Source of the DNA: an uncultured Candidatus Rokubacteria bacterium
Lineage (GTDB): Bacteria; Methylomirabilota; Methylomirabilia; Rokubacteriales; DASRDR01
Length of the DNA: 64,000 nucleotides
Direction of reading: 5' to 3'
Assembly (NCBI GenBank): GCA_963805625.1
Contig: CAWDVE010000010.1
Coordinates: 1 to 64,000 of the forward strand
Shown here: piece after piece, positions 4,365 through 63,410 of the stretch
How the letters are laid out: every line of letters starts with the position of its first letter
Numbering within the stretch: position 1 is the stretch's first letter
The notes under the pieces: generated by a model
Databases searched by the model: none
Seen by the model: only the letters and a program-made list of their open reading frames with translations
Told to the model about the DNA's origin: nothing
Made by a program: the position numbers and the translations under genes

Positions 4365-4699
4365 CGCTAAGCGCATGGGCGGATCGCGGGGACAGGCACT
4401 GTCCCTCCGTAAATAGGTGCTTTACAATGTGTTGAAAACTTAGGGTTCCCCATGAAAATAGAGTAGACAGATGTACATAATGGAATGTTTTTACCTCTTA
4501 ATTATTTGCGATGAACCCCGCCGCCCCCGACGGGGCGCCCCCGCGGCGGATTAGTGTCTGTAAGTATATTTGCAGACACCGCACTGCCCCGCCGTGCCTC
4601 GGAGAGGCCCTGAGGCGGGTTTTCCTCCTGAAATTACATGGTTTAATGATTTTCATGGTTCGGGTGCGAACTCCCGTTCATGCCCGTTTCAGCAGAGCC
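4365..4699 (+). repeat. Modular intergenic repeat (MITE/REP-like), locus 1: module B followed by module A
   Basis: GGGGACAGGCACTGTCCC hairpin; CCGCCGCCCCCGACGGGGCGCCCCCGCGGCGG; CCCGCCGTGCCTCGGAGAGGCCCTGAGGCGGG; ends GTTTCAGCAGAGCC at 4686-4699. Confidence 0.9.
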
Positions 4700-4711
4700 G
4701 GAAAATGTATT

Positions 4712-5593
4712 CTAAATACTGACGTTCAGCACCGAGCGGATCAGGATACCTATCACAAAGGAGATCGCTGCAATACCGAGGCTGATGAGAAGCATCTCTC
4801 CGAACCGTCGCCAGAAAGGAAGATCTTTTGCCACGGATATATAGAATGTGAAGAGGAATATGACAAGAACGGCTCCTGCCAGGGTGAATATGAGGGCATG
4901 ATACGGGCTTTCAAGGATAAGGTACGGGAGGATCAGCAGGGCGACGGTCACAAGGTAGGTAGTCCCGGTATAGACAGATGCCCTGAAAGGATTGGTTGCA
5001 CCTCCGTCCGACCGCTGGGACAGGTACTCGGAAGCTCCCATTGAAAGAGAGGCAGCGACTCCCATGATCAGGCCGGCAACCGCAATGATTTGTGTATTCT
5101 GGATTGCAAAGGTGAGCCCGGCAAGGGTTCCGGTAAACTCAACGAGTGCATCATTAAGACCGAGTACGACCGAGCCCACATATTTCAGCCGTTCTTCATC
5201 GATGAGTGCAATCAGTTCCCGTTCATGGTTCTCCTCATTTTCCAGGATATCCCGTGCCTCGGGAATCCTGCCAGCAAGTCCCTGATCATACCCCTGTGCA
5301 CGTTTTTCTACGCCTTCCATGAGCTTGATGGCAAATGTCATGCCCATGCCCCGTGCGATCAGGTAATAGAACCAGATACGGAGCGTGTCCGGTGCCACGT
5401 CCTGCCGGGTGTACTGTTTCCATATCGCATAATGACCGAGTTCCTGGCCGGCGATCCGCTCCAGCACCTCACGGTTGTGCGCATCATGGTTTGCAGCAGC
5501 AATTTTTTTGTAAATATGGTGCTCGGTGATCTCGCCCCTTTGCAGGGCAAGCAGGGTTGCCGTCAGTCCGGGATCTTCAGGCGGGGAGGTCAT
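4712..5593 (-). CDS. Rubrerythrin/ferritin-like domain fused to VIT1/CCC1 iron transporter
   Basis: N-terminal E..EITEH / ELGH / EENHE ferritin-like motifs; VLGLNDALVEFTG and SMGASEYLS VIT1 motifs; 5 TM helices. Confidence 0.92.
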   Translation of the reverse strand: MTSPPEDPGLTATLLALQRGEITEHHIYKKIAAANHDAHNREVLERIAGQELGHYAIWKQYTRQDVAPDTLRIWFYYLIARGMGMTFAIKLMEGVEKRAQGYDQGLAGRIPEARDILENEENHERELIALIDEERLKYVGSVVLGLNDALVEFTGTLAGLTFAIQNTQIIAVAGLIMGVAASLSMGASEYLSQRSDGGATNPFRASVYTGTTYLVTVALLILPYLILESPYHALIFTLAGAVLVIFLFTFYISVAKDLPFWRRFGEMLLISLGIAAISFVIGILIRSVLNVSI

Positions 5594-7299
5594 TGTATCA
5601 CCCTGTACATATCCCGCGGTACCAGGATCTCAAACTTCACACCTTTGCCGGGTTCACCGTTTTCGCGGATGGTAATGCCCGTGATCGCGAGGATTTCCCG
5701 GGACAGGAACAGGCCAAGACCTGTGTGTTTGCCAAACCCTCTGCGGAAGATAAGTTCCTTCTCCGGGGCAGGTATCCCTGCACCGTCATCCTCATACGTA
5801 ATTACCCCGCCTGCCTCAGTCTCGTTAAACCGGAACCAGATTCGTGTGACATGGTCCCCGTGGCGGATGGAGTTCTCCATGAGGTTATAGAATACCTTAC
5901 TGATGAGGGGATCGGCAAAGACTTCAACGCCGGAAAGCATGATCTCAGGCGTGATCTTTTCGAGAGGAAGTTGAGCCGCGGAAGAGCGGACTGTTGTCGC
6001 GATCTCCTGCCATTGGGGTGCGTTTACGCCGATGTCTTCATAATAGCGGGTGAATTCGATCTGGCGACGGATCGATGTCACGGCTTCTTCCTCTTTTTGT
6101 ATGAACCCGAGAATCTCCGGGTCCGTTACACTCTCTTTGGAGATCAGCAGGTAGCCTCCCAGCACCATCAGCTGGTTGAGGATATCGTGACGGGTAATCG
6201 ATGAAAGCATATTGAGTTTTTTCAGTGCCTGCTGCAGGGCTTTTTCTGCCCGCTTGGGCTCGGTAATATCATGGAGCACGTGGACGCACCCGGTGACCGT
6301 GCCTGCTGCATCCCTGAGCGGGGAAGCCGTTACCAGGAAGTCCCCGTTGAGGGTATCTTCATGGATTTCCTGGACGTGTTCCTTACCGTCGGACATGAGA
6401 ATCTGGTGGGGACATGAACGTGGCGGCTGCCCGCTGTGGTGGACGATCTCATAGCAGGTATGACCGACGGCATCCCGGACGGGTATACCGAGCCGATCAG
6501 ACATTGATTTGTTCACCCGTACGATGCGATGGTCACGATCGATAATGGAGATCAGGTCCGGAACAGCGTCAAAGGTCCGCTCCCATTCATCTTTTGCCTT
6601 CAGGATTTCATCCTGCAGCCGTTTTTTCTCAGTGATATCATGGGCAGTGGTTGAAATGCCAGTGATGACACCCTCAGGATTTTTGATAGGTGACAGGGAG
6701 AGAGAGACCTGGATGAGTCTCCCGTCCTTTGTTATCCGGTCCGTCTCGTATCGCCCGATACGTTCTCCGCTCAGGATCCTCCCGATGAGCCGGGGTATTT
6801 CGTCAGGACGATCCGGTGGTGAAAGCAGGCTGACGGGCTTTCCCATAACTTCCCGGGCTGTGTAACCGTAGAGCCGTTCGGCGCCGGAGTTCCAGTCAGT
6901 GATGATCCCGTCCAGGGTTTTACCCACGACAGCATCATTGGACGATTCGACCATGGATACAAACCTGAGGCATCTGGCGGCATCCTGCTGCATCCTGTCG
7001 CTCAGGAATGAAACCACGGCACCGATACTCATGAAAACCACCACCCGTGCGAGAGCAGCGACGATGACCTCCGGGGATGGAGATCCAACGCCAAGAACAA
7101 GCGCACTATAGATGGCCGAGAGAATAACCGTGAACAGGATACCACGACGGGGATAATAATAGGCGGTGAGGATGATGGGGATGTACAGGAGATGGGGTAA
7201 TACATTGGTAATGTTTCGGGTAAGCCCGTACCAGTTCAGGAGCAGTGACGCAGATGTGCTGACAGCGATAAGGCTCAGGACAAGCCGGGGATCTTTCAT
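5590..7299 (-). CDS. Membrane PAS-PAS sensor histidine kinase
   Basis: N-terminal TMs, two PAS domains, H-box ITRHDILNQL, NLMENSIRHG, DDGAGIP, HTGLGLF. Start at 7299 preferred (7368 possible); overlaps the VIT1 gene by 4 bp. Confidence 0.92.
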   Translation of the reverse strand: MKDPRLVLSLIAVSTSASLLLNWYGLTRNITNVLPHLLYIPIILTAYYYPRRGILFTVILSAIYSALVLGVGSPSPEVIVAALARVVVFMSIGAVVSFLSDRMQQDAARCLRFVSMVESSNDAVVGKTLDGIITDWNSGAERLYGYTAREVMGKPVSLLSPPDRPDEIPRLIGRILSGERIGRYETDRITKDGRLIQVSLSLSPIKNPEGVITGISTTAHDITEKKRLQDEILKAKDEWERTFDAVPDLISIIDRDHRIVRVNKSMSDRLGIPVRDAVGHTCYEIVHHSGQPPRSCPHQILMSDGKEHVQEIHEDTLNGDFLVTASPLRDAAGTVTGCVHVLHDITEPKRAEKALQQALKKLNMLSSITRHDILNQLMVLGGYLLISKESVTDPEILGFIQKEEEAVTSIRRQIEFTRYYEDIGVNAPQWQEIATTVRSSAAQLPLEKITPEIMLSGVEVFADPLISKVFYNLMENSIRHGDHVTRIWFRFNETEAGGVITYEDDGAGIPAPEKELIFRRGFGKHTGLGLFLSREILAITGITIRENGEPGKGVKFEILVPRDMYRVIQ

Positions 7300-7571
7300 T
7301 GTCTGGTCAAGATACAGGAAACTCGTGCAGATAACCCCCGGTACGTGCTTAATAGTTTTCTCCTGCATATATTGTATTCTTCGATGTTCATGAACCCTTT
7401 AAGCCAAGGCCGGGCACATTGATGATTCTTTTTTGACTGCGTGAGGTTAAGGGGGTCAGGTGTGATTGAAAAAAGATGGAGAGCACCGGAAAAGAGGACC
7501 TTGCGGAGGATTCATTGAAAGAACAAACGGTGCATCTTCAGGAATAAAAAAAATGCGATGGTGATCTGGTA

Positions 7572-9560
7572 TCAGCGGATCTTCGTACCCGGTTCAACAG
7601 GTTTCAGGGGGGTGAGGAGCGATGCAGTATCCCCGGCAGCAAGGATCATGCCATTTGATTCCACGCCAAAGATCTTTGCCGGCGCCAGGTTCGTAACCAC
7701 AACTACATCCTTTCCTACGAGGTCCTCAGGCTTGTAAAACTGCTGCATGCCGGCTACGATCTGGCGGGTCTCGCCCCCGATATCCACCTGGAGTTTCAGG
7801 AGCTTGTTTGATTTCCTGACCGGTTCTGCCGCAAGCACCCTGCCGGTCCTCAGGTCGAGTTTCTGGAACTCCTCAAAGGAAAGGACGGGTATTTTCTCCA
7901 TTTTCCTGTCTGCCTGGGCTACACGTTTCTGGAGCAGGGCTTCCAGCTCTGCAATCTGGGTTTCTTCCATCCGGCTGAAGAGCGGGGTCGGGGGAAGGAG
8001 GACGGTTTCCACAACCGGCTCTGCAGCTTCCCTGAGGGAATGATCTGCAAGCGTGTCTTTGTATCCCAGCATTTTCCAGCACACCTGTGCCTTTTCCGGC
8101 ATCACCGGCTCGATGAGCAGAGCTACTGCCTTGACGATCTGGATGCAGTTGGTGATTACCTGTGCTGCCGCATTACGATCGGTCTTGATCAGTTTCCAGG
8201 GGGCATTGGTCTGGATGTACGTATTGCCGAATGCTGCGAGCGCCATAATTCCATCAACTGCACCCTTGAATTCGTAGTCCCGCATGAGGCTGTCCACGTT
8301 CATGAGGCTCTTTTGTATTTCTGCAATTATGGCAGGATCGACGGGACAGGAAGGGATCCCGCCGAATTCCTTGTGTGCAAAGAAAAGCGTGCGGTAGACA
8401 AAGTTACCGAAGATATTGACAACTTCGTTATTGATCCGTTCGCCAAAGACCTTCCACGAAAAATTCAGTTCCTTGGTGTGACTCGTGTAGGCGAGCAGGT
8501 AGTACCGGAGGTAGTCAGCAGGGAGACCCTTGTCAAGGTAATCCTCATTGGTCCAGACAACATACCCACGGGATTTCGAGAATTTATGATCATCGACCTT
8601 GACCATCCCGCTTGCGACAATAGCATGAGGGACGCCGTACCCGGCACCCTTCAGGAGCGCCGGCCAGAAGATACTGTGGTGGTAGATGATATCGCCACCG
8701 ATGAAATGCGTGACCCGGTTATCCCCGCACCAGTAACGTTTCCAGTCTTTTCCTGCATTCTCTGCCCATTCCTCGGTGAATGCGATATACCCGATGGGAG
8801 CGTCAACCCAGACATAGACCACGAGATCGTCGCGGCCGGGGAACTTCACACCCCATTCGAGGGTACGGGTAATGCACCAGTCGTGCAGGTCTTCCTTGAT
8901 CCACCCGATCGCGTAGTTCTTCGCGTTGGTCGTCCCTTTTACATTATCGAGGAAGGGGAGCAGGAAATCCTTGAATTCGGAGAGCCTGAAGAAGTAATGC
9001 TCCTGGTCCCGGAACTCTGCCTTCGTCCCGCAGACCTTGCAGACCGGATCCTTGATTTCCCCCGGTTCCAGGTGTTTGCCGCACCCCTGGTCACACTCAT
9101 CGCCCCGTGCCGCTGTCCCGCAGTGGGGGCAGATCCCCTCGACATAGCGGTCGGGAAGGAACCGTTTGCATTTCGTGCAATATGCCTGGTGCACGATCTG
9201 CTTGTAGACATAGCCGTTTTTGATAAGTTCGGATACAATTGCCCTGGTGCGGTGGTGTGTCGCCGGGTCATCGGTCATGCCGAACCGGTCGAAGATTACT
9301 CCCATTCTTTGGAATGTCTCCTCGAAATGGCGGTGGTAACGCTCGGATAGTGCCCGTGGAGAGGTCCCCGCTTCCTCCGCCGACACAACGATGGGGGTCC
9401 CGTGATTATCCGAACCGCAGACGAAGACGACCTCTTCGCCTGCCCGCCGCATGTAGCGGACGTAAGCGTCAGCAGGCACGTACGTTCGCAGATGTCCAAG
9501 ATGGCAGGGACCGTTGGTATACGGCAACCCGCAGGTGACCAGCAGCGGTGGTGGGTTCAT
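7572..9560 (-). CDS. metG: Methionine--tRNA ligase
   Basis: LPYTNGPCHLGH, Zn knuckles, KFSKS, C-terminal tRNA-binding OB domain. Confidence 0.98.
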   Translation of the reverse strand: MNPPPLLVTCGLPYTNGPCHLGHLRTYVPADAYVRYMRRAGEEVVFVCGSDNHGTPIVVSAEEAGTSPRALSERYHRHFEETFQRMGVIFDRFGMTDDPATHHRTRAIVSELIKNGYVYKQIVHQAYCTKCKRFLPDRYVEGICPHCGTAARGDECDQGCGKHLEPGEIKDPVCKVCGTKAEFRDQEHYFFRLSEFKDFLLPFLDNVKGTTNAKNYAIGWIKEDLHDWCITRTLEWGVKFPGRDDLVVYVWVDAPIGYIAFTEEWAENAGKDWKRYWCGDNRVTHFIGGDIIYHHSIFWPALLKGAGYGVPHAIVASGMVKVDDHKFSKSRGYVVWTNEDYLDKGLPADYLRYYLLAYTSHTKELNFSWKVFGERINNEVVNIFGNFVYRTLFFAHKEFGGIPSCPVDPAIIAEIQKSLMNVDSLMRDYEFKGAVDGIMALAAFGNTYIQTNAPWKLIKTDRNAAAQVITNCIQIVKAVALLIEPVMPEKAQVCWKMLGYKDTLADHSLREAAEPVVETVLLPPTPLFSRMEETQIAELEALLQKRVAQADRKMEKIPVLSFEEFQKLDLRTGRVLAAEPVRKSNKLLKLQVDIGGETRQIVAGMQQFYKPEDLVGKDVVVVTNLAPAKIFGVESNGMILAAGDTASLLTPLKPVEPGTKIR

Positions 9561-9599
9561 CAGTACTTTTTAGATGCTTATGAGTAATAAGATCTGTAT

Positions 9600-10391: not shown

Positions 10392-10406
10392 TTGTCTTAA
10401 ATCTCA

Positions 10407-10629
10407 GGATTTCCAATGAAGAATTCCATAGATTCCGAGTAATTGTCGGATCCTCGCTTATTGCGATGACCTGCGGCGGATCATCTCGTGTTATAATGTA
10501 TTATAAACAACTCATTGCCCCGCCGTGCCTCGGAGAGGCCCTGAGGCGGGGATCCTCCTGAAATTGCGATGGTTTAATGATTTTCATGGTTCGGGTGCGA
10601 ACTCCCGTTCATGCCCGTTTCAGCAGAAC
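10407..10629 (+). repeat. Modular intergenic repeat, locus 2 (partial module A)
   Basis: TGCCCCGCCGTGCCTCGGAGAGGCCCTGAGGCGGGGATCCTCCTGAAATT...GTTCATGCCCGTTTCAGCAGA; hairpin 1 is internally deleted. Confidence 0.9.
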
Positions 10630-10693
10630 ATTTAAAAAAACCGTGCCGGATTAAAATGACTGGAAACAGTGTTCCATTTTTCCCTTTTTCGTA

Positions 10694-11204: not shown

Positions 11205-11303
11205 TGGATGCAGGTTCGTTCATGTAATATAAATATATCATGGATAGTTCAGGTTATATTGATCTCAGTAATTATCTGCGTCGGCAGAACAGTGGGATCG
11301 CCT

Positions 11304-19042: not shown

Positions 19043-19189
19043 CACTCTTTTTCCTCAGTGACGTGCGATGAAGAACTGAGTTTCGGGCTGGTTTATTCGG
19101 TTTATCGCATGTCAGACCGATTTTTCTGAAAGATTTCCGGAAATCGTACAGCAGATCCGATTGCAGGTTGAATCAGTATTTTGTGCTTG

Positions 19190-19805
19190 TGATGAACGTC
19201 GCCCATCCGACAGGGCACGCCCCCTGTGGCTGATCAACATACCTGAAATTTCAGGAAACTTTTCTACCCCGCCATGCCTCTGGAAGGTCATAAGACCGGG
19301 AACTCTCAAAAATAGTCTGCTTTTTACCATTTTTTGCATGAGTAGAAACGGGCATGAACGGGAATGGTTCGCACCCGAACCATGAAAAATCATTAAACCA
19401 TGTAATTTCAGGAGGATCCCCGCATCAGGCCTCTCCGAGGCACGGCGGGGCAGTGCGGTGTTTGCAAATATATTTACAGATACTGATCCGCCGCGGGGGC
19501 GCCCCGTCGGGGGCGGCGGGGTTCATCGCAAATAATTAAGGGATAAAAACATTCCACTAATGTACTCGAATCTGTCCAATTTTCATGGGAAATCATCAAA
19601 ATATTTTTCTTAACACTCTTTTGGGGCTACGGCAGGTAATGCCTCCGTCCCCGCCGCTGTGGCATCACCCCAGGAGAGATAACTCCAGAGATAGGTAATA
19701 CGACACAATCGCAAAGCTCAGGGGCGGTTCGGGAGGACAGGCACTGTCCCCTCCGTAAACCAGGTGCTTTGCAATTTGTTGAAAACTCAGGGTTTCTGCA
19801 GTGCC
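19190..19805 (-). repeat. Modular intergenic repeat, locus 3: full-length copy 19340-19805 (inverse of locus 4) preceded by a degenerate module A in the opposite orientation
   Basis: GTAGAAACGGGCATGAACGGG at the left end and GGGTTTCTGCAGTGCC at 19790-19805; both GC hairpins and the GGACAGGCACTGTCC hairpin are present. Confidence 0.9.
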
Positions 19806-21322: not shown

Positions 21323-21659
21323 GAAAATACCGTGCTATCATTCAAATCGTTAGCATGGTGCTGTATTAAAGATAATGCCCATAAAAAACGAAGCGGTTGC
21401 AGCGAACCTGTAAAATAAGGAACGGGGGACTATTCCAAAACCAATTATCCGGTTTTTTGTCCGGAAACAAAAATACCGGGCAAAGAATGTCATCTTCATT
21501 CATCTGGCACTGGATGATTGAAGTAACCGGAACTGGCAGCTGAGCACTCACCTCTCAACCGAGAAATCCTGATGCGGGTTATGTTGCGGAGCAGTATTTC
21601 CATTCGTGATCTATTTTCGTGCTGGCGTTACCTATCCGGAGAGGTGGCAGAATATGCTT

Positions 21660-23837: not shown

Positions 23838-24293
23838 GGCTCTGCTGAAACCCTATAATTTCAACAAATTGGAAATCACCTGTTATCAGAGGGGATGGTG
23901 CCTGTCCCCGGAACCGCTCCTGCATTTTGCGATGGTGTTGTTTTACATTCTCATGACTAGTTCGGGGATGACACAACGGGGGTGGAGGCATTACGTGCCC
24001 GAGCTCAAAAAAGAGCGTTGAGAAAAAATGGTGAAGGATTTCCAATGAAAATACCACAATTCCTTGGAATATCCGTAAGTGCTCATCCTGTTAATTGCGA
24101 TGAACCTTGCGCCGCCCCCGAAGGGACGCCCCCGCGGCGGATCGGTGTCTGTACAGTATATTTTGCAAACACCGCACTGCCCCGCCGTGCCTCGGAGAGG
24201 CCCTGAGGCGGGGGATCCTCCTGAAATTGCATGGTTTAATGATTTTCATAGTTCGGGTGTGAACTCTTTGTTCATGCTCGTTTCAACAAGAGC
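23838..24293 (+). mobile_element. MITE-like full-length copy of the modular repeat, locus 4 (about 456 bp, terminal inverted repeats)
   Basis: GGCTCTGCTGAAAC at 23838 and GTTTCAACAAGAGC at 24280-24293 flank inverted module B plus module A; no credible ORF inside. Confidence 0.75.
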
Positions 24294-32565: not shown

Positions 32566-32804
32566 CCGATAAACCTACCTGTAAATATCCTTTTATAAAT
32601 AACCGGTATATGAAACCGACCTTGCCCTGATGTGAAGGTATCGACTGTCTCCCATTTGGGCAGCCCGCATTGTTCCTGATATCGGCATCTTTGTATCAGT
32701 ATCTGTCTGCCATAAGTTACGATCCCGTGAATTTGCGGCAGGGTTTTTATGTATTCATTATTTTTCAACCCATTACGGAAAAATTGATAAATTTATGGCT
32801 CCGT

Positions 32805-33245
32805 GGAAATCCTACACTATATTTTCTCAACACTCTTTTATGGGCTGTGGCACGTAATGCTTCCGCCCCCGCCGCTGTGGCACCCCCCTAGAGCAATTAC
32901 TCCAGAGAAGGTAATACAACATCATCGCAAAGCGCAGGGGCGGTTCGGGGGGACAGGCACTGTCCCCTCCGTAAATAGGTACTTTGCAATTCGTTGAAAA
33001 CTTAGAGTTTCCCATCGAAAGATTGCCAGCCAGATGGCCAGGTTTAAATACTTCGATCGGGAAGTGCCAATCCCGCAATTGCGATGACCTGCGCCGCCCC
33101 CGAAGGGACGCCCCCGCGGCGCTTCAATGTGCCTGAAAACTCCACCCTGGCCTCTCAAGAGCCTGTTACGGATGCCAGTCGTACCTTCACACTTTTTCAT
33201 GGTTGGGTGAGACCCATTCCCGTTCATGCCCGTTTCTACAGAGCC
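32805..33245 (+). repeat. Modular intergenic repeat, locus 5 (module B then variant module A)
   Basis: GGGGGACAGGCACTGTCCCC, GCCGCCCCCGAAGGGACGCCCCCGCGGC; ends GTTTCTACAGAGCC at 33232-33245. Confidence 0.88.
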
Positions 33246-37657: not shown

Positions 37658-39204
<1,547 letters not shown>

Positions 39205-39402
39205 TATACACCTGCTTTTTTTAGATCTGCATTGGGAACTGTGATGCATTTGACCTTTTGGATCCGAAATGCCATTTCATGTGTGGTTTTCCAATCCGGT
39301 CACCTGTGCACCGCTAACCGATCCCGATGCCGGATGAAAAGTCCGGGAAATCAGCATCAGATATCGCGGTCCAGGTAGCGTAATCATTTTGTTTTGTTGG
39401 AA

Positions 39403-39430
39403 GGAAGTTGTATTCCTATATTTATAAATT
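39403..39430 (-). promoter_or_regulatory. NrpR-type operator GGAA-N6-TTCC next to the TATA box of amtB-glnK
   Basis: GGAA-GTTGTA-TTCC at 39403-39416; minus-strand TTTATAAATA immediately upstream. Confidence 0.85.
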
Positions 39431-39473
39431 TAACTACAGAATCGAAAAAAAATTTCAAAAAAACAAATACTGT

Positions 39474-40670
39474 TCAGGCACGCTCACCATGCTGACAGAT
39501 ATCGAGGCCGACATACTCTTCATCTTCAGTGACCCTCATCCCCAGGGTTCGATCGATAACAAATGCAATGCAATAGGTCATCACAAAAGCAAATATGAGT
39601 GCTGCAACTGCGCATACGGTATTTACTGCAAACTGCCAGGCATTGCCTTCAACCAGTCCGGAAATTCCGCCAATTGCTGCCGCCGCAAAAATGCCGGTAG
39701 CAACGGTACCCCAGAGACCACCCATTCCGTGAATTGCCCAGGCATCCAGACTTTCGTCACATTTTTTCCTGACCCGCACGAGCATCATTCCATAACAGAG
39801 AACACCCGCGACACCCCCGATAAGAAGGGAAACCAGCGGGGTGACAAACCCGGCAGCCGGAGTTATTGCCACCATGCCGGCAATGGCGCCGCTTACCATA
39901 CCCAGTGAACTGGGTTTGCCATGATACCAGCCCGCAAACATCCATGCCAGAGCACCGGCAGCGGCTGCCGTGTTTGTTGTGACGAATGCGTTGACAGCAA
40001 CACTGTTTACTGCAAGAGCACTTCCCGCATTAAAACCGAACCAGCCAAACCATAACAGGGCAGCGCCGAGAAGAGCCATGGGGATATTATGGGGTTCCAG
40101 TGCATATTCCCCGAATCCTGCCCGGTTTTTTATCACCAGAGCAAGAGCAAGAGCACCAAAACCTGAACAGATCTCGACCACGGTCCCCCCGGCAAAATCA
40201 ATGAGTCCCAGCTTCGATGCCCATCCGCCACCCCATGCCCAGTGTGCAAGCGGACAATAGACAAGAGTGAGCCATACGAGAACAAATACAATAAATGAGG
40301 AGAACTTGATGCGTTCGGCAACTGCCGATGTCACGATGGTTACCGTAACTGCAGCAAAAAAGAGCTGGAACACCATAAAGACAAGGGGGGGATAGGCTCC
40401 CGATCCTGCATCTGCACTGACCCCGTTAAGCCCTACAAAATCGAGGTTACCGATAACTCCCCCGATATCCTGACCAAAGGCAAGAGAATACCCGATCAGG
40501 ATCCAGTGCACACTTACAAGTGCAAGGACAACAAACGAGAGGGCAATCATCGAAATGAAATTCTTCTTCCTTACCAATCCGCCATAAAAAAACCCGACAC
40601 CAGGGGTCATCAGCATCACCAGGATTGCAGAGACCATAAGCCAGGTCGTAACACCGGTATCCAAAGCCAT
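39474..40670 (-). CDS. amtB: Second ammonium transporter
   Basis: [33 protein letters not shown]; the first pore His is replaced by Glu. Confidence 0.95.
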
Positions 40671-40887
40671 TATTTTCACCGTTGACAGCTTTTTATGTAC
40701 TGGCGTCACTCCGGAAGTTGGACCAGTCCGCTACCCGTCTGGAAGTACCTGAAGGTCCACGGACCCGGGTATCGTTTTGGTATACCTTACGGTCATCCAA
40801 CCTTTTAACTGTGCCAGAATGATCGACAGTATGTTTACCGGATTACAAGTCCGTACATTGCCGATACATTAATGTAAAAAATTTTGA

Positions 40888-42214
40888 TCAGTATGTTGCA
40901 AGATACCTGTCAAGTTCCCAGGGATGGACTGCAAGCCGGAAGGAATCGGTTTCCATCTGGGCAATACTTGAAAGATTCGTTACAACATGTTCACCGAGCG
41001 TCTTACAGAGCACTTCATCCTTGACGAGCATTGCATTGGATTCCATAAGGCTGCCCGGCAGCATATCGATATGGAGTCGCTTCCGGGCTTTCTCATCGAG
41101 ATGATAGATATTGGTATTCGTGCTTTCAGGTGGCATAACCTTGTTCCTGATACCATCCAGTCCGGCTGCAAGCATACAGGCAAAGGTAAGATACGGGTTG
41201 CACATCGGGTCCGGGCTGCGGAACTCTGCCCGGGTGCTGTTACCCCTTGCTGCCGGAACGCGAACCAGCGCGGAACGGTTGGCTGCACTCCAGGAGATGT
41301 AACAGGGGGCTTCATAACCGGGGACAAGGCGCTTGTAGGAGTTGATTGTCGGGTTTGCAACACGGGTAATCGCCTTTGCGTGTTTCAGGATACCGCCGAT
41401 ATAGTACATTGCGGTATCGGAGAGTCTGGTTTTCTCCATTGGGATCAAAGAATGCATTCTTCCCGTTTCTGGCCAGCGATCCATGGGTGTGCATACCGCT
41501 GCCATTGATGCCTGCAATCGGCTTTGCCATAAAGCTCGCGTGCAAACCGTACTGCAGCGCGATTGACTTGGTTGCAAATTTGAAGGTAATAACCCGATCT
41601 GCAGTAATGAGTGCATCACCATATTTAAAGTCAATTTCATGCTGGCTGTCAGCGACTTCATGATGGGATGCTTCTATCTCGAATCCCATATCACTGAGTG
41701 CAAGGACAACATCGCGTCGGACATCCTCTGCAGAATCGGTAGGGGCGAGATCAAAATACCCCCCGCGATCTTCAAATTCTGTTGTCGGAACTCCCTCATA
41801 CATTTTAAAGAGGAAAAACTCGAGTTCAGGACCGGTATTAAACGTGAATCCCATCTTTGCTGCTTCAGCAATGGTTTTTCGCAGGATATAACGAGGATCT
41901 CCGTCAAACGGTTTGTTTCCATAGGTCTGGACGTCACAAATAAACCGGGCAACCTTCCCCTCCTGGGGTCTCCAGGGAAGGACCGCATACGTTGACGGGT
42001 CTGGTTTGAGCATCATGTCGGATTCTTCAATGCGGGCAAATCCTTCTATGGATGAGCCATCAAACCAGATACCCTCAGTAAGGGCTTTTTCTGCCTGAAT
42101 AACCGGAATCGAGACGTTTTTCGGCTGACCCTGGATGTCAGTAAACTGAAGTCGGATAAATTTTACCTTGTCCGCTTCAATTTTTTTGAGGAGTTTTGTT
42201 ACATCTGCTGACAT
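40888..42214 (-). CDS. glnA: Glutamine synthetase type I (frameshift near 41425)
   Basis: [35 protein letters not shown], then [20 protein letters not shown]. Confidence 0.96.
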
Positions 42215-42217
42215 ATT

Positions 42218-42305
42218 GGAAGACATGTTCCACCCATTTGTATTTATACTTATTCAACCAATCTGATTGAACGAATGTTCGCTAGTGCAATGAACATATG
42301 TTCAT
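42218..42305. promoter_or_regulatory. glnA/gltB1 divergent promoter with NrpR-type operators
   Basis: GGAA-GACATG-TTCC at 42218-42231, minus-strand TATAAATA at 42241-42248, TGAA-CGAATG-TTCG at 42268-42281, palindrome ATGAACATATGTTCAT at 42290-42305. Confidence 0.82.
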
Positions 42306-46670: not shown

Positions 46671-46709
46671 TTTTTCAGGCCGGGAAATTCATTGGGATAC
46701 TGGTTTTAA

Positions 46710-47257
46710 GGATCCCCCGACTCATGACATCTTCGAGGCATGGCGGATCAAGGAATGTTTTCAGATTTTATGTTGTTGATCCGCTGCGGGAGCACTCCGT
46801 CGGAGACGGCGGGGTCATCATAATCTGATCAGGATTACCGATTCTCATCTGGATTTTCATGAAGGTCCGAACACTTCTTTCATACAGGTTTCCCAAAAAA
46901 TTATAGTATTTTACGAGAGTCACCCGCCTCAGGGCCTCTCCGAGGCACGGCGGGTCAGGAGGTTTATTTCGGATTTTTGGTTATTGAACCGCCGCGGGGG
47001 CGTCCCTTCGGGGGCGGCGGGGTCATCATAAGTTTGATTCACAGATACCGATCCCCGTTCATCTCTGAATATTACGATTTTCATGGTTCAGGTTCGAACA
47101 CTTCTTTCATACAGGTTTCCCATAAAAATTATCAGTATTTTACGAGAGTCACCCGCCTCAGGGCCTCTCCGAGGCACGGCAGGTCAGGAGGTTTATTTCG
47201 GATTTTTGGTTATTGAACCGCCCCTGGAGCGTCCCGTCAGGGGCACCAGTCGTTCAT
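46710..47257 (-). repeat. Modular intergenic repeat, locus 6: three tandem module-A-core copies
   Basis: CCCGCCTCAGGGCCTCTCCGAGGCACGG at 46923 and 47152 (229-bp period) plus a degenerate copy at 46710-46822. Confidence 0.9.
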
Positions 47258-47294
47258 CTTAAAACAGAAACTCAAAAAAACAAAGATCTCGGCT

Positions 47295-49594: not shown

Positions 49595-51779
49595 ATGGCG
49601 CGGCGGGAGACAAAACAACTGACATTTGACGGAATTACCGTACCTGTCCTCCCCTTCGTCCGTACATCTGACGGGCATATCATCGAATGGAACCGCGATC
49701 GTATTGTCCGCCAGATTGTTCAGGAAACAAAGCTGGTCGAGACCTTCTATGGCTATGAAGGGGCAGACGAATTGACCGCCCAGGATATTGCCCTGGAGGT
49801 TGAAAACCGCATCAAGAACATGGGTCTGAAATCACTTTCCGGTCCACTCATCCGTGAGATTGTCAACATCACACTGCTTGAGAGGGGTATGATACAGTAC
49901 CGCAATGTTTCTACCCGTGTCGGTACTCCGGTTTATGATGCACACCAGATTGATGTCGGGAGGGGATTCGAAGCACACGACAACGCAAACCTCCAGGAAA
50001 ATGCCGAGACTTCCCATAAGAAGAAAGCAGACAAGATCTCAAAGGAACAATATCTGCTCCAGCTCCCACCCGACCTTGCCGATCATCACCTGTCCGGCGA
50101 GATGCACATCCATGATCTCGAGTATTTTGGTACGCGCCCGTTCTGCCAGGACTGGGACCTGCGCTATTTCTTCTATTATGGCCTGATGCCTGACGGCAAT
50201 GGTACAAAGGCTTCGGTGGCTGGTCCTGCGAAGCGTCCGGAGGTTGCAATTCTCCATGCGGTAAAAGCACTCGGATCCGCCCAGACTAATTTTGCCGGTG
50301 GGCAGGGTTATTACAATTTCCTCACCTTCCTGGCGCCTTATATGGAGGGGATGGGGTATAACGAGATCAAACAGAACATGCAGATGTTTGTCTATGAAAT
50401 GACACAGATGATGGTAGCCCGGGGAGGTCAGCTTGTCTTCTCATCCATCCAGCTCTCACCGGGTGTACCGACTCTCTGGCAGGACAAGCCATGCATTTTT
50501 AAAGGAAAGATCTGGGACGGCAAATCAGCTCCTCTTCGCACGTATGGGGAGTTCGAGCGTGAGGTGCGATTGCTCTTCAAAGCCCTCATGGAAGTAATGC
50601 TTGAAGGAGATTACTGGGGCAAACCCTTCAACTTCCCAAAGCCCGAGATCTCTATCGAACCGGATTTCATGAATGAACGCGAAGAGTTCAACGCGAAAAA
50701 CCCTGATCTTCCAACATTCCAGGAATTATACCTGATGACCTTCGAACTCGCTTCGAAGTTCGGAACACCCTATTACGATAACCAGCTTCCCGCGTACCGC
50801 GGAGCAGGTAAAGGGATTTCCTGTTACCAGTGCTGTGCGTATCAGTTTTCCACGGTGGCAGACAAGGATTCGGATTTTGATAAGAAGATGTATTTTGAGG
50901 ATGGCAGGCACTTCTCGATGGGATCCTGGCAGGTTGTTTCCGTAAACTGCCCCCGTGCGGCATATAATGCAGAAGGAGATGATACCCGTCTTTTTGCCGA
51001 ACTCAAGGCGCTCATGGATGTCGCGGTGGATATTTTCAAGATCAAACGCCGATGGATGGACCTTATCCGGGCCAACAGCCGGATGCCATTTGCCATGCAG
51101 CGCCCCAAGGACCCGAACACCGGTGAACGTGGCGCACTTGCTGTCGATCTTGAAGGACTGGTATATACGATTGGGGTCGTCGGTGTCAATGAGATGGTGC
51201 AGCACCACACCGGTAAGCAGACTCCACGAATCAAAAGAAGCATTCAGGCTTGCCATACGTGCGATGACAGAGATGGAGTTGTATGGTCGCGAACTCTCCG
51301 CAAAGAATAACATGACCATTGCCCTTGCCCGCACGCCGGCAGAGACGACCGGGCAAAGGTTTGCGGTTGCCGATCTGCTCGATCGCCGGTATCACGATTA
51401 TGCAGTAAACGTGATCAAAGGAGACATCGAAGAAGGCCTGGAAATGCTGGGCAAGAGCCGTGATCTCCCCATATACTATACGAATGGCACCCATGTGGCA
51501 CCGGGGGCAAATGTCCCGCTCACCAAACGTATGGAAATCGAGCATGTATTCTTCCCCATTGTTGACGGGGGGAACATCTTCCATATCTGGCTGGGTGAGG
51601 CACGTCCGGATCCACGTGGACTCATGGACATGGCGATGAAGCTCTGCCGCAATACCCAGATAGGATATTTTGCTTTTACCCGGGATATTACGGTCTCGCT
51701 CCGCCAGTTCCACGAGATGCGTTCGTCAAAGAAATCCATTACCCCTTATATCCCCTCAGATTTTCCTGTCAAGGTATAA
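49595..51779 (+). CDS. nrdD: Class III anaerobic ribonucleoside-triphosphate reductase lacking the C-terminal glycyl-radical domain (frameshift near 51221)
   Basis: ATP cone, HIHDLEYF.TRPFC, RGGQ, FNFPKP, QCCAY finger loop, TPAETT..RFA..D, YTNGTH, GGNIFHIW, YFAFT. Confidence 0.93.
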
Positions 51780-51996
51780 TGGGGGATTTCTGTATTTCAG
51801 AGAGGGTCGCTCAGGAAGAGGCAGTTTGCCATCACCATTTTTAATGGTAAGACGATTTTCGATTAACCGTTCCTGGATTATCTTTTTACCAGTTCTTTGA
51901 AGAGCTGTAATACTGAATGGGGTGCCTAGGGGCAGGGGCACAGGAATTCATTGTTTCCTGATATCATAGAGAAGTGGATTCTCTGATATCCTGCTT

Positions 51997-52345
51997 ATGA
52001 TGAACGCCGCCGCCCCCGAAGGGACGCCCCCGCGGCGGATCCAGTTACAAAGTTGGTAAATTTCGACAACTCTAAAAACCTCTGACCCGCCGTGCCTCGG
52101 AGAGGCCCTGAGGCGGGTGATCCTCATAAATTTTTTATGAAATTCACCGTTCAGGAATCGTTTTTTTAAACAGAGGATGATGAACACCGTTGTGTCCGGG
52201 GGACGTTTCCGCTGCTGATCATCCAGAAAAATCGGTCAATTTCTGATATATACCAGAACCGCCATGCCTTCGGAAAGACCTGTGGCGGGGACCCTCATCA
52301 GGGCAGAGCGGATTTTTCATCGGTGAGGGTTCACAGGGAACATAA
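51997..52345 (+). repeat. Modular intergenic repeat, locus 7 (one good and one degenerate module A core)
   Basis: CGCCGCCGCCCCCGAAGGGACGCCCCCGCGGCGG and CCCGCCGTGCCTCGGAGAGGCCCTGAGGCGGG; second copy CCGCCATGCCTTCGGAAAGACCTGTGGCGGG. Confidence 0.87.
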
Positions 52346-55508: not shown

Positions 55509-55646
55509 GGTGAAGTGTATGCATAACAGGAAAGAAAAATGTATGCAGCGTGCATATCGGGTGAATGGATGAGTATGGCCATACTAACCACGACAGCCCT
55601 GGTTTTCCGGTTTGACCTTCTCCAGTGGATCATCCCTTAATTGGCA

Positions 55647-56065
55647 GCTCTGTTGAAACGGGCATGAACGGGAAAATTGAACTAAACAGATGTTCGTAAT
55701 GGATTGTTTATTCTTCAAAATTATTTGCGATGAACCCCGCCGCCCCCGACGGGGCGCCCCCGCGGCGGATCAGTATCTGTAAGCATATTTGCAAAACACC
55801 GCACTGCCCCGCCGTGCCTCGAAGAGGCCCTGAGGCGGGGGACCCTCCTAAAATAGGATGGTTTAATGATTTTCATCGCAATTTGTTGAAATCTTAGGGT
55901 TTCTGAGGGGAACAGTGCCTGTCCCCCGACCGCCCCTGCGGTTTACGATTGTGTTGTATTACCTTCTCGGGAATTATCGCTCGACAGGGGATGTCACAGC
56001 GGCGAGTGTGGAGGCATTACGTGCCGTTGTCCTGAAGAGCGTTGAGAAAAATATTGTGAGGATTT
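55647..56065. repeat. Modular intergenic repeat, locus 8 (inverted end fragment + module A + inverted module B)
   Basis: GCTCTGTTGAAACGGGCATGAACGGG at 55647, both GC hairpins, GGGGAACAGTGCCTGTCCCC. Confidence 0.9.
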
Positions 56066-56334
56066 AACAGGACCGAAATGGCTTAAAAAAGGGAAAGATA
56101 CTATGGGAATTATCGAAAAAATCCGGAAAACCGGGAAATCGTAGTCAGGGTATCCTGTGCGTGATTTTTTCATCATAGGTGAAAAAAAGGAATTCTGAAT
56201 AACAGTTATTTTTTAATATGCACGCAATTCTGATGATCGGCCGATAAAAATCGCCCTAAAATAAAATCAATTATAAATTTACGCCTCATTTGTCAAACCG
56301 GGTGAAATTTACAGGTATTTGAATTAATATGATA

Positions 56335-56350: not shown

Positions 56351-56392
56351 ACCACAATACAATAGATAATGGAACATCAAACGGGATGTACT

Positions 56393-56932: not shown

Positions 56933-56934
56933 AA

Positions 56935-58782: not shown

Positions 58783-58788
58783 GCACAG

Positions 58789-59919: not shown

Positions 59920-60186
59920 ACAAATCTATTTTTCAGTTATTTTTAAAGCTCATACTCATCTGGGTCAATCCAGGATATGCTTGCATTCGATAATTGAGAG
60001 AAATTTCATCCTGGACAGATTATTCATAATAAATTGCTGGAATCGGGCCTCTCTGGCAGCATGCCAGAACTTTTCCCGGACGGAAAAATGTTCATACACG
60101 ATGAACAGGCAGCGAATAGTGAAGATTTTTTCGCAGTAATATTTTCGTACACACCTATTTGAATGAAGGTGACAAATGAGATCAGG

Positions 60187-61155
60187 ATGAGGCTGCTCTT
60201 CGAGCTTTCCGGTGAAAATCCGACACTGCCCTTCGCCGAACTTGACTGCATAGGTAACGTTCTCGACAGACGTCTCCAGGTCGCGGTTGTAGAATCCCCG
60301 GATCCGAAATTGGCGACCCGGCTTGCCATGACACAGGTAGTGTCGGAATATCTTGGCGAGTGTGAACCCACTATCCCGGCCTTCGAAGAACTGCTCAAAG
60401 AGCTTGCCATTGAAACCCGGCAGTCCTTTGCAGGACGTGTCAAAAAGGTTCACGGGGGTTGCCTCGAAAGAAATCCCTGTTCACAGCGGGAGTTTGAGTG
60501 TCTGATTGGTACCAGGATCTCCGGTCCCGTTTCTCTTAAAAAGCCTCAGGTCGAATACCGTGCCGTACTTTCGGAGGATCGCTGCTATTTTGGAAAAGTG
60601 CTCTTTTCAATCGACCGCGGGTCCTTTGATACCCGGAATCCCGGGAAACGGGATTTTTTTCACCCGGGCGTAATGATGCCAAGAATGGCCCGCACCCTCA
60701 TCAATCTGACCTGTGTCAGGGCGGGGGACATCATGCTTGATCCTTTCTGTGGGACCGGCGGTATCCTGATTGAGGCAGAGATGATCGGTATCCGTTCCGT
60801 GGGCAGTGATTTTGATCCATTGATGGCAGCTGGCAGCCGGCAGAACATTACCAACTCAGATCTCCTGCTTGCAGATGCAACACGTCTTCCGTTTCTCAGT
60901 CAATCCTTCGATGCAGTGGTAACGGATTTCCCTTACGGCCAGTCTGTCTGCATCAAAAAAACCGACACCATGGACAACCTGTATGCTGATGCACTCGAAG
61001 AGATACGTCGCGTGATTAAGCATGGTCGGAGAGCTGTTGTAGTTACTCACCGGGATATCTCTGATATTGCAGGACAGCATATGACCATTCTCCAGCGTCA
61101 TGAGCAACGAGTCCATAAAAGTCTGACCCGTCGCATCCTTGTCCTCACCGAATAA
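60187..61155 (+). CDS. THUMP-domain tRNA (guanine-N2) methyltransferase (Trm11/TrmG10-like)
   Basis: FELSGE, FFHPG.M.P..AR, LDPFCGTGG, TDFPYG. Confidence 0.88.
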   Translation: MRLLFELSGENPTLPFAELDCIGNVLDRRLQVAVVESPDPKLATRLAMTQVVSEYLGECEPTIPAFEELLKELAIETRQSFAGRVKKVHGGCLERNPCSQREFECLIGTRISGPVSLKKPQVEYRAVLSEDRCYFGKVLFSIDRGSFDTRNPGKRDFFHPGVMMPRMARTLINLTCVRAGDIMLDPFCGTGGILIEAEMIGIRSVGSDFDPLMAAGSRQNITNSDLLLADATRLPFLSQSFDAVVTDFPYGQSVCIKKTDTMDNLYADALEEIRRVIKHGRRAVVVTHRDISDIAGQHMTILQRHEQRVHKSLTRRILVLTE

Positions 61156-61282
61156 TGTTCTGCCATCCTTCCCCATTTCGGATCTCCTCTGTCTGCCAGT
61201 CAATCGAACCTGCATAGTGGAATGGGTAGACGGGCATGTGTCTCTGAAAAACAATAAATATCCCCGGGATATACTACTGCAA

Positions 61283-61852
61283 ATGAGGGAGCTGAAGAAT
61301 AGTATACGGCAGATCCTGCGTCAGCGCAAAGATGCAATGACTACGGAAGAGAGGCTGAATAAAAGCGCAGGGATCTGCCGCCATCTTCTGGCACTGATCA
61401 GGAATGGCGAAACTGTAATGGTATACACCTCAAAGGAAAAAGAGGTACATACAACACACCTTATCGCTGCCCTCCTTGAACGCGGAAATCCGATTATCGT
61501 GCCTATAATTGTGAAAGAAGATGTCAGTCTGCGACTCTCTTATCTGAAAGATCTCTCTTCTCTTGTCCCGAGCACGTTTGGTGTCCCGGAACCTATAGGA
61601 AGTGAGATACCGGCGACAGGTGGTGACGTGGATACGATCATCCTCCCCATGCATGGTTTTGACCGGACCGGGCGGAGAATCGGGTATGGAGCCGGGTATT
61701 ATGACCGGTTCCTGGCAAAACATCCGAATTTACGAAAAATCGGGATCGCTTTCGCCTGCCAGGAATATGAAAATCTGCCCGTTGATGAGAATGATATCCC
61801 CATGGATTATATCATAACCGAAGAAGGTATTGTGTATCCGGAGGGGGAGTGA
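61283..61852 (+). CDS. 5-formyltetrahydrofolate cyclo-ligase
   Basis: FGVPEP, GFDRTGRRIGYGAGYYDRFL, DIPMDYIITE. Confidence 0.93.
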   Translation: MRELKNSIRQILRQRKDAMTTEERLNKSAGICRHLLALIRNGETVMVYTSKEKEVHTTHLIAALLERGNPIIVPIIVKEDVSLRLSYLKDLSSLVPSTFGVPEPIGSEIPATGGDVDTIILPMHGFDRTGRRIGYGAGYYDRFLAKHPNLRKIGIAFACQEYENLPVDENDIPMDYIITEEGIVYPEGE

Positions 61853-61856
61853 TACA

Positions 61857-62748
61857 ACGGAGATAAACGGTACAAAAATTCTGGATACCTATGCAGAGGC
61901 ATTCCCGGTCTGGCTTTCCCGGGTTATTATTACTGCAGCAACACGAGAATGGGCGTATAAGGCGGCAGTTGAAGCGACAGGATTTGCGACATCAAAAATC
62001 GGGTGTCCCTGTGAAGCCGGGATCGAAGGGTATCTCTCAAAAAAAGAGACTCCTGACGGCAGGGCAGGTGTTTCCATCCTGATCTGTTCAGATAAGAAGA
62101 CCATGAAATCAAATGTCGCATCCCGGATTTCCCAGTGTATCCTCCCGGCGCCTACAGCATCGGCCTATGACGGATTTCCTGAAGCCGGATCACGGTTCTA
62201 TATCCGTATGCACTATTTCGGGGACACCTATGAGGAGCGCTGCAGCATCAATGGCAGAAAATGCTGGAAGATCCCCATCATGGAGGGAAACTATATCGGT
62301 GAGGAACGATTTGGGACCGTAAAGGGAATAGCAGGGGGCAATTTTCTTGTCATGGGAAAGAACCAGAAGTCGGCACTTTCCGGTATTGAAGCAGCAGCTG
62401 ATGCTGTCGCGGGATTAAAGGGTGTCATAACCAGTTTTGCAGGAGGAATTGTTGCAAGTGGTTCGAAGACTGGGCAGTAAAAATTACCGTTTTCCCATGC
62501 CGGCGAGCACAAATCATGTATGGTGCCCGACCCTGAAAGGAAAAATCGGCGATTCGAATGTACCTGAAGGGGTAGGATCGGTATATGAGATGGTAATGAA
62601 CGGAATCAGTGAAAATCATATCAGGGCCGCAATGAAGGCGGGCATACTCGCTGCCACGGAAACAGGGAGGGTCATGTTTATCGGGGCATCAAATTTTGAG
62701 GGAAAACTTGGCCAGTACAGGTTTTACCTGCATGACCTGTTCAGGTAA
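61857..62748 (+). CDS. ftr: Formylmethanofuran--tetrahydromethanopterin formyltransferase homolog (frameshift near 62475; ACG at the start position)
   Basis: EINGTKILDTYAEAF, GFATS.IGCPCEAG, ETPDGR.G, GIAGGNF, GIVASGSK, ASTNH..CPTL, NFEGKLG. Confidence 0.85.
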
Positions 62749-62954
62749 CGGTCATATGGTTGTTACGGGACCTGGTTTTTCCAGGAATACTACGTATATG
62801 TACAAGGGGATGCTCTATTCATCGCCGGGGGCGGGATGTATCCTGAAAGGTTTATTATTTTTTGGTAATTATTCAATAAAAACCACCAATCGATAATTTC
62901 CCATGAGAACATGTCAGAAATAACTCTTATTTTTAAAAAATGAAGACGTTCTTG

Positions 62955-63410
62955 GGGGCGGAGGCATCACGTGCCATAGCCCGAAAAAAGAGCGTTAAGA
63001 AAAATATTTTGAAAATTTCCCATCAAAATAGAATTAAACAGATGTGAGTAATGGATTGTTTATTTCTCATAATTATTTGTGATGAACCCCGCCGCGGGGG
63101 CGTCCCTCCGGGGGCGACGGCGATTATCCTTATGCATAGAAGAGTTGCAAATCTCATAAGATGATAGCAGTTTAAAGTATATTTCGGCATGAACTCCTTA
63201 GTTTTCAACAAATTGGAAATACCTATCTCAAAGGAACCCTGCGCCCCCGAAGGGCGCCCCCGCGGCGGATAGGTCTCGTAAGTATATTTGCAACACCGCA
63301 CTCCCCGCCGTGCCTCGGAGAGGCCCTGAGGCGGGGCCTCAGAAAATTATAGGGTTTAATGATTTTCATGTTCAGTGTGAACTCACGTTCATGCCCGTTT
63401 CAACAGAGGC
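62955..63410 (+). repeat. Modular intergenic repeat, locus 9
   Basis: Inverted module B end GGGGGCGGAGGCATCACGTGCC, an inverted hairpin 1 near 63090, and module A ending GTTTCAACAGAG at 63397-63408. Confidence 0.88.

What the first reader, a model, noticed from the sequence alone, without database searches (positions are those of the whole stretch)
4365..63410. Abundant modular hairpin repeat family with terminal inverted repeats (archaeal MITE/REP-BIME-like mosaic)
Seen: 9 intergenic loci in 64 kb (4.4, 10.4, 19.2, 23.8, 32.8, 46.7, 52.0, 55.6, 63.0 kb), none interrupting a gene; five lie between convergent genes. Module A has three parts: nested hairpin CCGCCG-CCCCCGA(C/A)GGG..CGCCCC-CGCGGCGG, a variable AT-looped stem, and nested hairpin CCCGCC-GTGCCTCGGAGAGGCCCTGA-GGCGGG; its tail ends GTTTCA(A/G)CAGAGC. 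Module B carries the hairpin GGGGACAG-GCA-CTGTCCCC. The hairpins are conserved while the spacers diverge. No transposase is in the window. Inference: a non-autonomous element mobilised in trans and possibly domesticated as RNA-processing, termination or nucleoid-protein sites. I know of no described REP/BIME system like it in methanogens.
Basis: partly seen in the sequence, partly recalled or inferred. Interest (0 to 1): 0.78.

Follow-up and report, generated by a model that had tools for sequence, protein, structure and literature searches.

The report
Shape-shifting hairpin MITEs of Methanoregula
The repeats are copies of a small non-coding transposon (MITE) family of Methanoregula methanogens, likely moved by an IS5-type transposase with the same ends; it is a known kind of mobile DNA, but copies at the same site differ inside between close relatives (likely by gene conversion), and a two-hairpin core is kept even without the transposon ends.

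Summary
The repeats are real. The window is part of a 143-kb Methanoregula fragment joined to a roughly 70%-GC assembly. Most loci are copies of a 220–470 bp MITE family with 13-bp ends (GGCTCTGYWGAAA) and 8-bp target duplications. Empty sites exist in two close relatives and in the window itself. The matching autonomous element was found: a ~1,007-bp IS5-family IS with the same ends and 8-bp duplication, with transposase hits in 67 of 201 family genomes. No RAYT/Y1 or IS6 transposase was found in the 5 genomes searched for each, and no Rfam family matched the repeats. So this is a MITE, not a REP/BIME system.

Two features go beyond a plain MITE. First, orthologous copies keep their insertion junction but swap modules, orientation or end type (5 of 14 shared junctions); one site has three interiors in three genomes, likely through gene conversion. 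Second, the H1/H3 two-hairpin core also occurs without TIRs, family-wide, and is kept far better than its neighbours (4% against 21% substitutions). Its function and mover are unknown; domestication is untested. This scan noted the same family before on another genome (e1-5271190).

The parts
4363..4699 (+). Left-truncated composite copy: part of module B, linker, module A, s-type end (TIR 4687-4699). G001 has a differently arranged copy with an f-type end at the same right junction.
7520..7560 (.). Site without an element; G001 carries a 448-bp copy here (left flank diverged, no clear duplication)
10461..10630 (+). Module A remnant (H1 largely deleted, H3 intact) with a degenerate s-type end; absent at this site in G001
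19187..19305 (+). Degenerate TIR-less core A, shared with G001
19336..19805 (-). Full-length 470-bp composite MITE (s and f ends), 8-bp duplication matching 7 of 8; G001 has the same ends but a different module A allele and linker
21372..21379 (.). Clean empty target (single 8-mer); G001 carries a 537-bp copy flanked by this 8-mer on both sides
23838..24293 (+). Full-length 456-bp composite MITE (f end, module B reversed, linker, module A, s end); its interior is less like the G001 orthologue than 42 of 69 other G001 copies are
32797..33245 (+). 449-bp isoform with module B inverted (c end, B forward, linker, variant module A, s end)
46700..47270 (-). Three tandem TIR-less core A units (spacing 208 and 229 bp), orthologous in G001 and G176
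51995..52126 (+). TIR-less solo core A (H1 52006-52038, H3 52086-52117) with a degenerate second unit downstream; in G001 a ~220-bp B-only MITE with an 8-bp duplication sits in the H1-H3 spacer
55646..56074 (+). 429-bp rearranged copy (s end, linker, module A, module B reversed, c end) between purH and grpE; the site is empty in G001 and G176
61245..61252 (.). Clean empty target; G176 carries a 294-bp copy with this 8-mer duplicated (7 of 8)
62954..63410 (+). Mosaic copy ending in an s-type TIR (63398-63410); G001 and G176 have a c-type end at the same right junction and differ inside from the window and from each other

Best explanation
These are copies of a Methanoregula MITE family with 13-bp inverted ends and 8-bp target duplications, likely moved in trans by the ~1-kb IS5-family transposase element that has the same ends, and likely remodelled after insertion by gene conversion between copies. 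SHOWN: TIRs; the 8-bp duplication; empty and filled site pairs; the autonomous element with matching ends and duplication size; nested insertion of one copy into another; three end types (s, f, c) that share the TIR and occur in several pairings; orthologous copies with the same junction but different interiors; TIR-less H1/H3 cores that stay at orthologous sites and are unusually well conserved. INFERRED: that the transposase acts on the MITE ends; that interior swaps arise by ectopic gene conversion or gap repair resolved in the shared TIR or in short GA/GTTTC microhomologies; that the composite arose when a module-B MITE captured an older hairpin core; that convergent-gap enrichment reflects tolerance rather than function.
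For: Target duplication: over 69 left ends paired with the nearest right end, the 8-mer match averages 4.71 of 8 against 2.51 shuffled (maximum 3.19 in 10,000 shuffles), peaking at 8 bp. Partner: NF033579 IS5 transposase over the cut-off in 3 of 3 proteins. 24 of 32 transposase loci have a TIR pair, 12 with a perfect 8-bp duplication; IS and MITE ends share the same commonest base at TIR positions 1-4 and 6-13, while position 5 is C in the IS and C or T about equally in the MITE; the interiors do not match IS bodies. One truncated copy lies in G001. Empty sites: 55.6 kb, 21,372 and 61,245, C10:111.2 kb. Replacement in place: C10:104.8 kb has the same junctions and three interiors in window, G001 and G176; 5 of 14 shared junctions have a switched end type; at 4 TIR-bound shared sites 11-44 of 69 non-orthologous G001 copies beat the orthologue, against 0 of 69 at 4 solo-core sites. 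Convergent gaps: 53 of 115 against 59 of 341, p=3e-9.
Against: Transposition by this enzyme was not shown. G176 carries many copies but no NF033579 hit, and the hits in G148 and G034 have internal stops (incomplete genomes). Copies average only 81% pairwise identity and their TIRs are the least conserved part (0.80-0.82), so many are old. No intermediate of the swap was seen. At the five switched junctions the opposite flank is diverged, deleted or unmapped, which could reflect transposase-driven adjacent rearrangement instead of conversion. All three close genomes are metagenome assemblies, and the window has frameshift-type errors. The model does not explain why the H1 32-mer is found without mismatch in many different genomes of the family.
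Confidence: 0.8

Rival explanations
1. The H1/H3 core is a separate, older REP- or PATE-like element (or a host-protein site) with its own, unknown way of spreading through single-stranded DNA; the IS5 MITE only captured it. This is compatible with the MITE status of the TIR-bound copies.
For: The core occurs without TIRs across the family and with alternative partner hairpins. H1 is found in 52 of 301 order-level genomes, with 124 copies in G001. Solo hairpins differ from their G001 orthologues at 21 of 478 positions against 200 of 937 in adjacent DNA. 96% of cells pair, with 17 double changes and 0 of 500 shuffles as high. Common H3 loop variants are G..A-closed (GGA, GAA, GCA, GCGA, GTGA).
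Against: No Y1/RAYT in 5 of 5 genomes. None of 30 TnpB-domain loci is bracketed by H1 and H3; 3 have a core nearby. No recurring neighbour gene among 47 proteins or among the 5 genes flanked on both sides. 12 of the 17 double changes are one pair, mostly in one genome. H1 loops are mostly GAC, GAA or GAT, not strictly GNA. DNA and RNA fold z-scores do not separate the two. No clean empty site for a solo core was seen.
Confidence: 0.3
2. The hairpins are domesticated RNA signals (terminators, processing or stability elements) kept by host selection.
For: Enrichment between convergent genes; excess conservation of H1/H3; RNA fold z-scores down to -4.15.
Against: Whole copies are gained and lost between genomes 93-95% identical. 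Convergent bias is shared by parasitic repeats and IS elements (PMC3049150 passages). No Rfam match. No expression data could be examined.
Confidence: 0.12
3. Different interiors at one site come from independent insertions into strong target hot spots, not from remodelling.
For: Targets are biased (A/T-rich core, loosely palindromic), and copies insert into each other (L092, and the H1-H3 spacer).
Against: The target consensus is loose. No head-to-tail pair separated by 8 bp was found among 635 TIR-like right ends or in 5 genomes. At 4.7 kb both genomes share a minority terminal allele, as expected if the end is ancestral.
Confidence: 0.12
4. The mosaic arrangements are assembly artefacts (repeat collapse or strain mixing).
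For: The contig is chimeric at about C10:143.4 kb and has frameshifts; the relatives are metagenome assemblies.
Against: Flanks stay collinear in three separate assemblies. Copies are only about 81% identical. G001 and G176 agree exactly on some insertions, and perfect duplications flank several isoforms.
Confidence: 0.06

Closest known systems
Prokaryotic MITEs mobilised by IS5-family elements; haloarchaeal ISH1/ISH9-class MITEs (MITEHsal7, MITEHsal13; PMC7002104, passages)
   Same: Non-coding, under 500 bp, TIRs homologous to a transposon, interior unrelated to it, 8-nt duplication (an 8-nt ISH1 example appears in that paper).
   Different: Modular interior with three interchangeable end types, a GC-rich core better kept than the TIRs, and in-place interior swaps. 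Placing the partner in the 'ISH1 subgroup' is from recall plus duplication size, not from ISfinder.
Haloquadratum PATEs, MITE-in-PATE nesting and 'SwitchRepeats' (PMC3119063, passages)
   Same: TIR-less palindromic repeats targeted by MITEs; different repeats, or opposite orientations, at an identical position in two strains.
   Different: PATE palindromes resemble IS605-type ends; no such link was found for H1/H3. Here switching affects 5 of 14 shared junctions and exchanges modules within one family.
Pneumococcal BOX and RUP elements (PMC3049150, passages)
   Same: Modular stem-loop repeat proposed to move through an IS with a similar TIR; enriched between convergent genes; modules vary between strains.
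   Different: BOX varies by the number of tandem boxB units; here modules invert, swap and nest, and the TIR and duplication match to the IS is close.
REP/BIME with RAYT (PMC2817692, search listing only; features recalled)
   Same: Abundant intergenic hairpins in mosaic clusters.
   Different: No Y1/RAYT gene found in 5 genomes; the element has TIRs and target duplications of DDE type.

Membership tests
MITE | Short, no transposase gene | tested here: met
   205-700 bp end pairs; no transposase family among 45 window proteins; no IS5 transposase hit in G000
MITE | Terminal inverted repeats | tested here: met
   13-bp TIR on all three end types
MITE | TIR shared with an autonomous IS of the same hosts | tested here: met
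   one truncated IS copy in G001
MITE | Target duplication of the same length as the IS | tested here: met
   8 bp in both
MITE | Empty sites in relatives | tested here: met
MITE | Mobilisation in trans shown experimentally | not testable with these tools
   needs a transposition assay
IS5 family (partner element) | ~300-aa DDE transposase over the IS5 profile cut-off in a ~1-kb element | tested here: met
   NF033579 at 207, 185 and 160 bits against a cut-off of 140; mostly 991-1,014 bp
IS5 family, ISH1 subgroup (partner element) | Clustering with ISfinder ISH1-group transposases | not testable with these tools
   No ISfinder access; the two reviews that define the subgroups were not held; label recalled
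IS6-family MITE | IS6 transposase (PF13610) in the hosts | tested here: not met
   0 of 5 genomes; controls positive in 5 of 14
REP/BIME-RAYT | Associated Y1 (RAYT) transposase gene | tested here: not met
   PF01797 in 0 of 5 genomes, incomplete ones included; controls positive in 6 of 14
REP/BIME-RAYT | Conserved 5' tetranucleotide tag at the hairpin foot | not tested
   feature recalled; not scored
PATE (solo core only) | Near-terminal palindromes, no TIR | tested here: met
   solo H1-spacer-H3 copies
PATE (solo core only) | Palindromes resemble the ends of IS605-type transposons | tested here: not met
   0 of 30 TnpB-domain loci bracketed by H1 and H3
PATE (solo core only) | Strain-specific insertion without duplication | tested here: inconclusive
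   solo cores are shared with G001/G176; more distant relatives are too diverged at these sites
Rfam RNA family | Match to a covariance model | tested here: not met
   only a tRNA in the window; none at E<=1 in 19.0-24.4 kb

The most novel reading that the evidence does not exclude
Methanoregula carries an old, family-wide two-hairpin DNA module with its own constraint (a single-strand or cruciform recognition site for an unknown host or mobile protein). An IS5 MITE captured it, and it drives copies to rewrite one another in place: a self-converting, modular repeat system not described in methanogens.
Probability: 0.2. Interest if true: 0.7.

Novelty: new variant of a known kind. Interest (0 to 1): 0.38.

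Why it matters
MITEs are ordinary, but this family is dense: about 5% of the 143-kb fragment and 124 H1 copies in G001. It comes with a matched transposase, so a methanogen MITE/transposase pair can be tested directly. Frequent in-place interior replacement would give a natural read-out of ectopic gene conversion in an archaeon. It also warns that a shared insertion site does not mean a shared element history. If the hairpin core is bound or processed by a protein, it would be a new archaeal intergenic signal. The chimeric contig matters for curation: 143 kb of methanogen DNA sits in a high-GC assembly.

Tried and rejected
IS6 partner, suggested by TIR likeness from recall: none in 5 genomes. 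RAYT/TnpA: none in 5 genomes. IS605/TnpB ends as the source of the hairpins: not seen at 30 loci. A recurring partner gene beside solo cores: none among 47 proteins; 143 further neighbour ORFs were listed but not scanned. Re-insertion into the old duplication: no 8-bp-spaced head-to-tail pair. Rfam: nothing on the repeats. Plasmids: no match. Viral contigs: no exact H1 match. PDB: no sequence relative of the transposase. RNA against DNA folding did not discriminate. The first pair count used a mis-registered structure and is void (redone). No read or expression data were obtained, so transcription and read support remain open. Literature: nine searches found no description of this family. The MITE sequence supplement of PMC11602168 could not be read and may already list these copies; ISfinder was not available.
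Full report
HOST AND DATA QUALITY. The window equals G000:C10:1-64000, but the assembly is about 70% GC while C10:1-143 kb is about 50% GC and carries methanogen genes. All blast hits of the repeat lie in that stretch. PurH is 98% identical to a record titled Methanoregula sp. UBA471 (handle G001). G001 and G176 are collinear with the fragment at about 91-97%. Collinearity with G001:C38 stops at C10:143,357 while C38 continues. So the fragment is Methanoregula DNA chimerically joined to another genome, and copy number had to be read from relatives. glnA, nrdD and ftr are split or truncated, which suggests indel errors.

OBSERVATION. All nine loci carry the family. H3 matches 8 times against 0.00 expected and the terminal 13-mer 6 times against 0.24. 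The 143-kb fragment has about 22 loci; 7,617 bases are hit by the nine window loci. Rfam finds only a tRNA.

ANATOMY. The commonest unit is 450-470 bp: an f-type end, module B reversed, a linker, module A (GATGAAC, H1, variable stem, H3, tail) and an s-type end. A ~221-bp B-only form has c and f ends. All three end types begin with the same TIR; s-f, c-f, s-s and s-c pairs occur. For 69 left ends paired with their nearest right end (duplicates, off-by-one and internal ends left in), flank identity peaks at 8 bp: 4.71 of 8 against 2.51 shuffled, maximum 3.19 in 10,000 shuffles. Targets are A/T-rich and loosely palindromic. Copies nest: one with a perfect duplication lies inside another's linker (L092), and B-only copies sit in the H1-H3 spacer in G001 where the window has none.

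MOBILITY. The 429-bp copy at 55.6 kb is absent from G001 and G176. The window has single 8-mers at 21,372 and 61,245 where G001 and G176 carry copies flanked by that 8-mer.

PARTNER. A PF01609 search gave 8 hits in 4 of 5 genomes; the three best proteins pass the IS5 profile NF033579. Relatives at E<=1e-40 occur in 67 of 201 family genomes. Of 32 loci, 24 have a TIR pair (mostly 991-1,014 bp apart) and 12 a perfect 8-bp duplication. IS and MITE ends have the same commonest base at TIR positions 1-4 and 6-13; position 5 is C in the IS and C or T about equally in the MITE. MITE interiors match no IS body, apart from L301, where a MITE end adjoins the IS, and one marginal 27-bp hit. G001 has one copy cut by a contig end; G176 has no hit; the G148 and G034 hits have stops. 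IS6 and Y1/RAYT were not found in 5 genomes each.

REMODELLING IN PLACE. Of 25 ends called in the fragment and mapped to G001, 9 had the same end type, 5 a different type at the same junction, 7 were empty or other (these include false or internal ends and one that is the same by eye), 1 was repetitive and 3 were unmapped. At C10:104.8 kb the window, G001 and G176 share both junctions and have three different interiors. At 19.3 and 131.2 kb the ends agree but the module A allele and linker differ. One search gave 12 rows. At four TIR-bound sites 42, 11, 15 and 44 of 69 non-orthologous G001 copies were closer than the orthologue. At four solo-core sites none was (3 of 69 for a second, decayed unit). 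Three rows (52.0, 62.9, 126.7 kb) are confounded by insertions or rearrangement. I infer ectopic gene conversion or gap repair resolved in the shared TIR or in short microhomologies. No intermediate was seen, and the far flank of the switched sites is usually altered. A precedent exists: 'SwitchRepeats' in Haloquadratum (PMC3119063, passages).

THE HAIRPIN CORE. The element's DNA hits 133 of 201 family genomes, mostly through module A. H1 (up to 2 mismatches) is found in 52 of 301 order-level genomes, 51 of them handles from the family sample, with 124 copies in G001 and no reversed-control hits; G172 has 93 with a narrower pattern. Many copies lack TIRs and pair H1 with other hairpins. In 18 full-length rows (one copy counted twice), H1, H3 and the tail hold 0.94-0.95 consensus frequency, the TIRs 0.80-0.82 and module B segments 0.84-0.89. 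Solo hairpins differ from their G001 orthologues at 21 of 478 positions against 200 of 937 nearby; for G176 the counts are 22 of 224 against 112 of 445, one poorly aligned row in each set left in. The window copies were picked for being near consensus, which should roughly halve the expected difference but not remove it. On 60 of 113 distinct H1+H3 copies (long-spacer copies and surplus G001/G172 rows left out), 96% of cells pair and 17 change on both sides, with 0 of 500 shuffles as high; 12 of the 17 are one pair, mostly from G172. Fold z-scores run from -1.7 to -3.6 as DNA and from -1.2 to -4.2 as RNA. No mover for solo cores was found. Selection and conversion both remain possible.

POSITION. 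Clusters lie between convergent genes in 53 of 115 classified cases, against 59 of 341 repeat-free gaps (p=3e-9). Of 134 clusters, 14 far from genes, 1 inside an ORF and 4 lacking a flanking gene were set aside. Pneumococcal repeats and IS elements show the same bias (PMC3049150, passages), so this is no evidence of function.

KNOWN OR NEW. As a MITE it meets five of six features; the sixth needs an experiment. Papers seen: passages of PMC13343696, PMC7002104, PMC3119063, PMC3049150, PMC10969869 and PMC11602168; search listing only for PMC2817692. Nine searches found no description. ISfinder and the supplement of PMC11602168 could not be seen and may list the family. The ISH1-subgroup label is recalled. 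I had reached that reading before seeing it; it agrees but is not independent evidence.

VERDICT. A real IS5-mobilised MITE family, a new variant of a known kind. What is worth a second look is the in-place module swapping and the unexplained conservation of the TIR-independent core. Interest 0.38.

Noticed in passing
G000:C10:1-143,400 (includes the window): Methanoregula fragment (about 50% GC) joined abruptly to a roughly 70%-GC contig; collinearity with G001:C38 ends at 143,357. A chimeric assembly.
   Followed up: yes
G000:C25:80,001-94,725 (L323): A second low-GC stretch (53% falling to 41%) at a contig end; ORFs listed, identity not examined.
   Followed up: no
window 40888-42226, 49595-51779, 61830-62748: glnA is truncated at about 266 residues of the profile match, and nrdD and ftr are each split over two frames; probably sequencing indels rather than pseudogenes.
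   Followed up: no
window 38002-40709: Two tandem ammonium transporter genes beside glutamine synthetase and a split glutamate-synthase cluster with an F420 hydrogenase beta-like subunit.
   Followed up: no
L241-L255, L265-L267 (for example G001:C14:55363): TnpB/Cas12f-like genes (open frames of about 185-350 aa) in one or two copies per genome, several in a shared gene context and without visible IS ends; possibly domesticated.
   Followed up: partly
C10:81.9, 91.8 and 126.7 kb: In these tandem duplicates of the solo core, the outermost H1 and H3 stay near-perfect while the inner ones decay, as if the outer pair were treated as ends. The tandems at window 46.7 and 52.0 kb do not follow this pattern.
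   Followed up: partly
L162, L290: Unrelated short insertions inside the H3 hairpin, in L162 flanked by a 5-bp repeat; another mobile element may target the hairpin.
   Followed up: no
L154, L156, L161, L176, L282, L285, L287, L289: H1 paired with alternative hairpin modules of similar grammar and preceded by a further G/C hairpin; a larger set of modules than the window shows.
   Followed up: partly
L301 (G149:C6): An IS5 transposase bounded on one side by a MITE s-type end, a possible IS-MITE hybrid or nested insertion.
   Followed up: no
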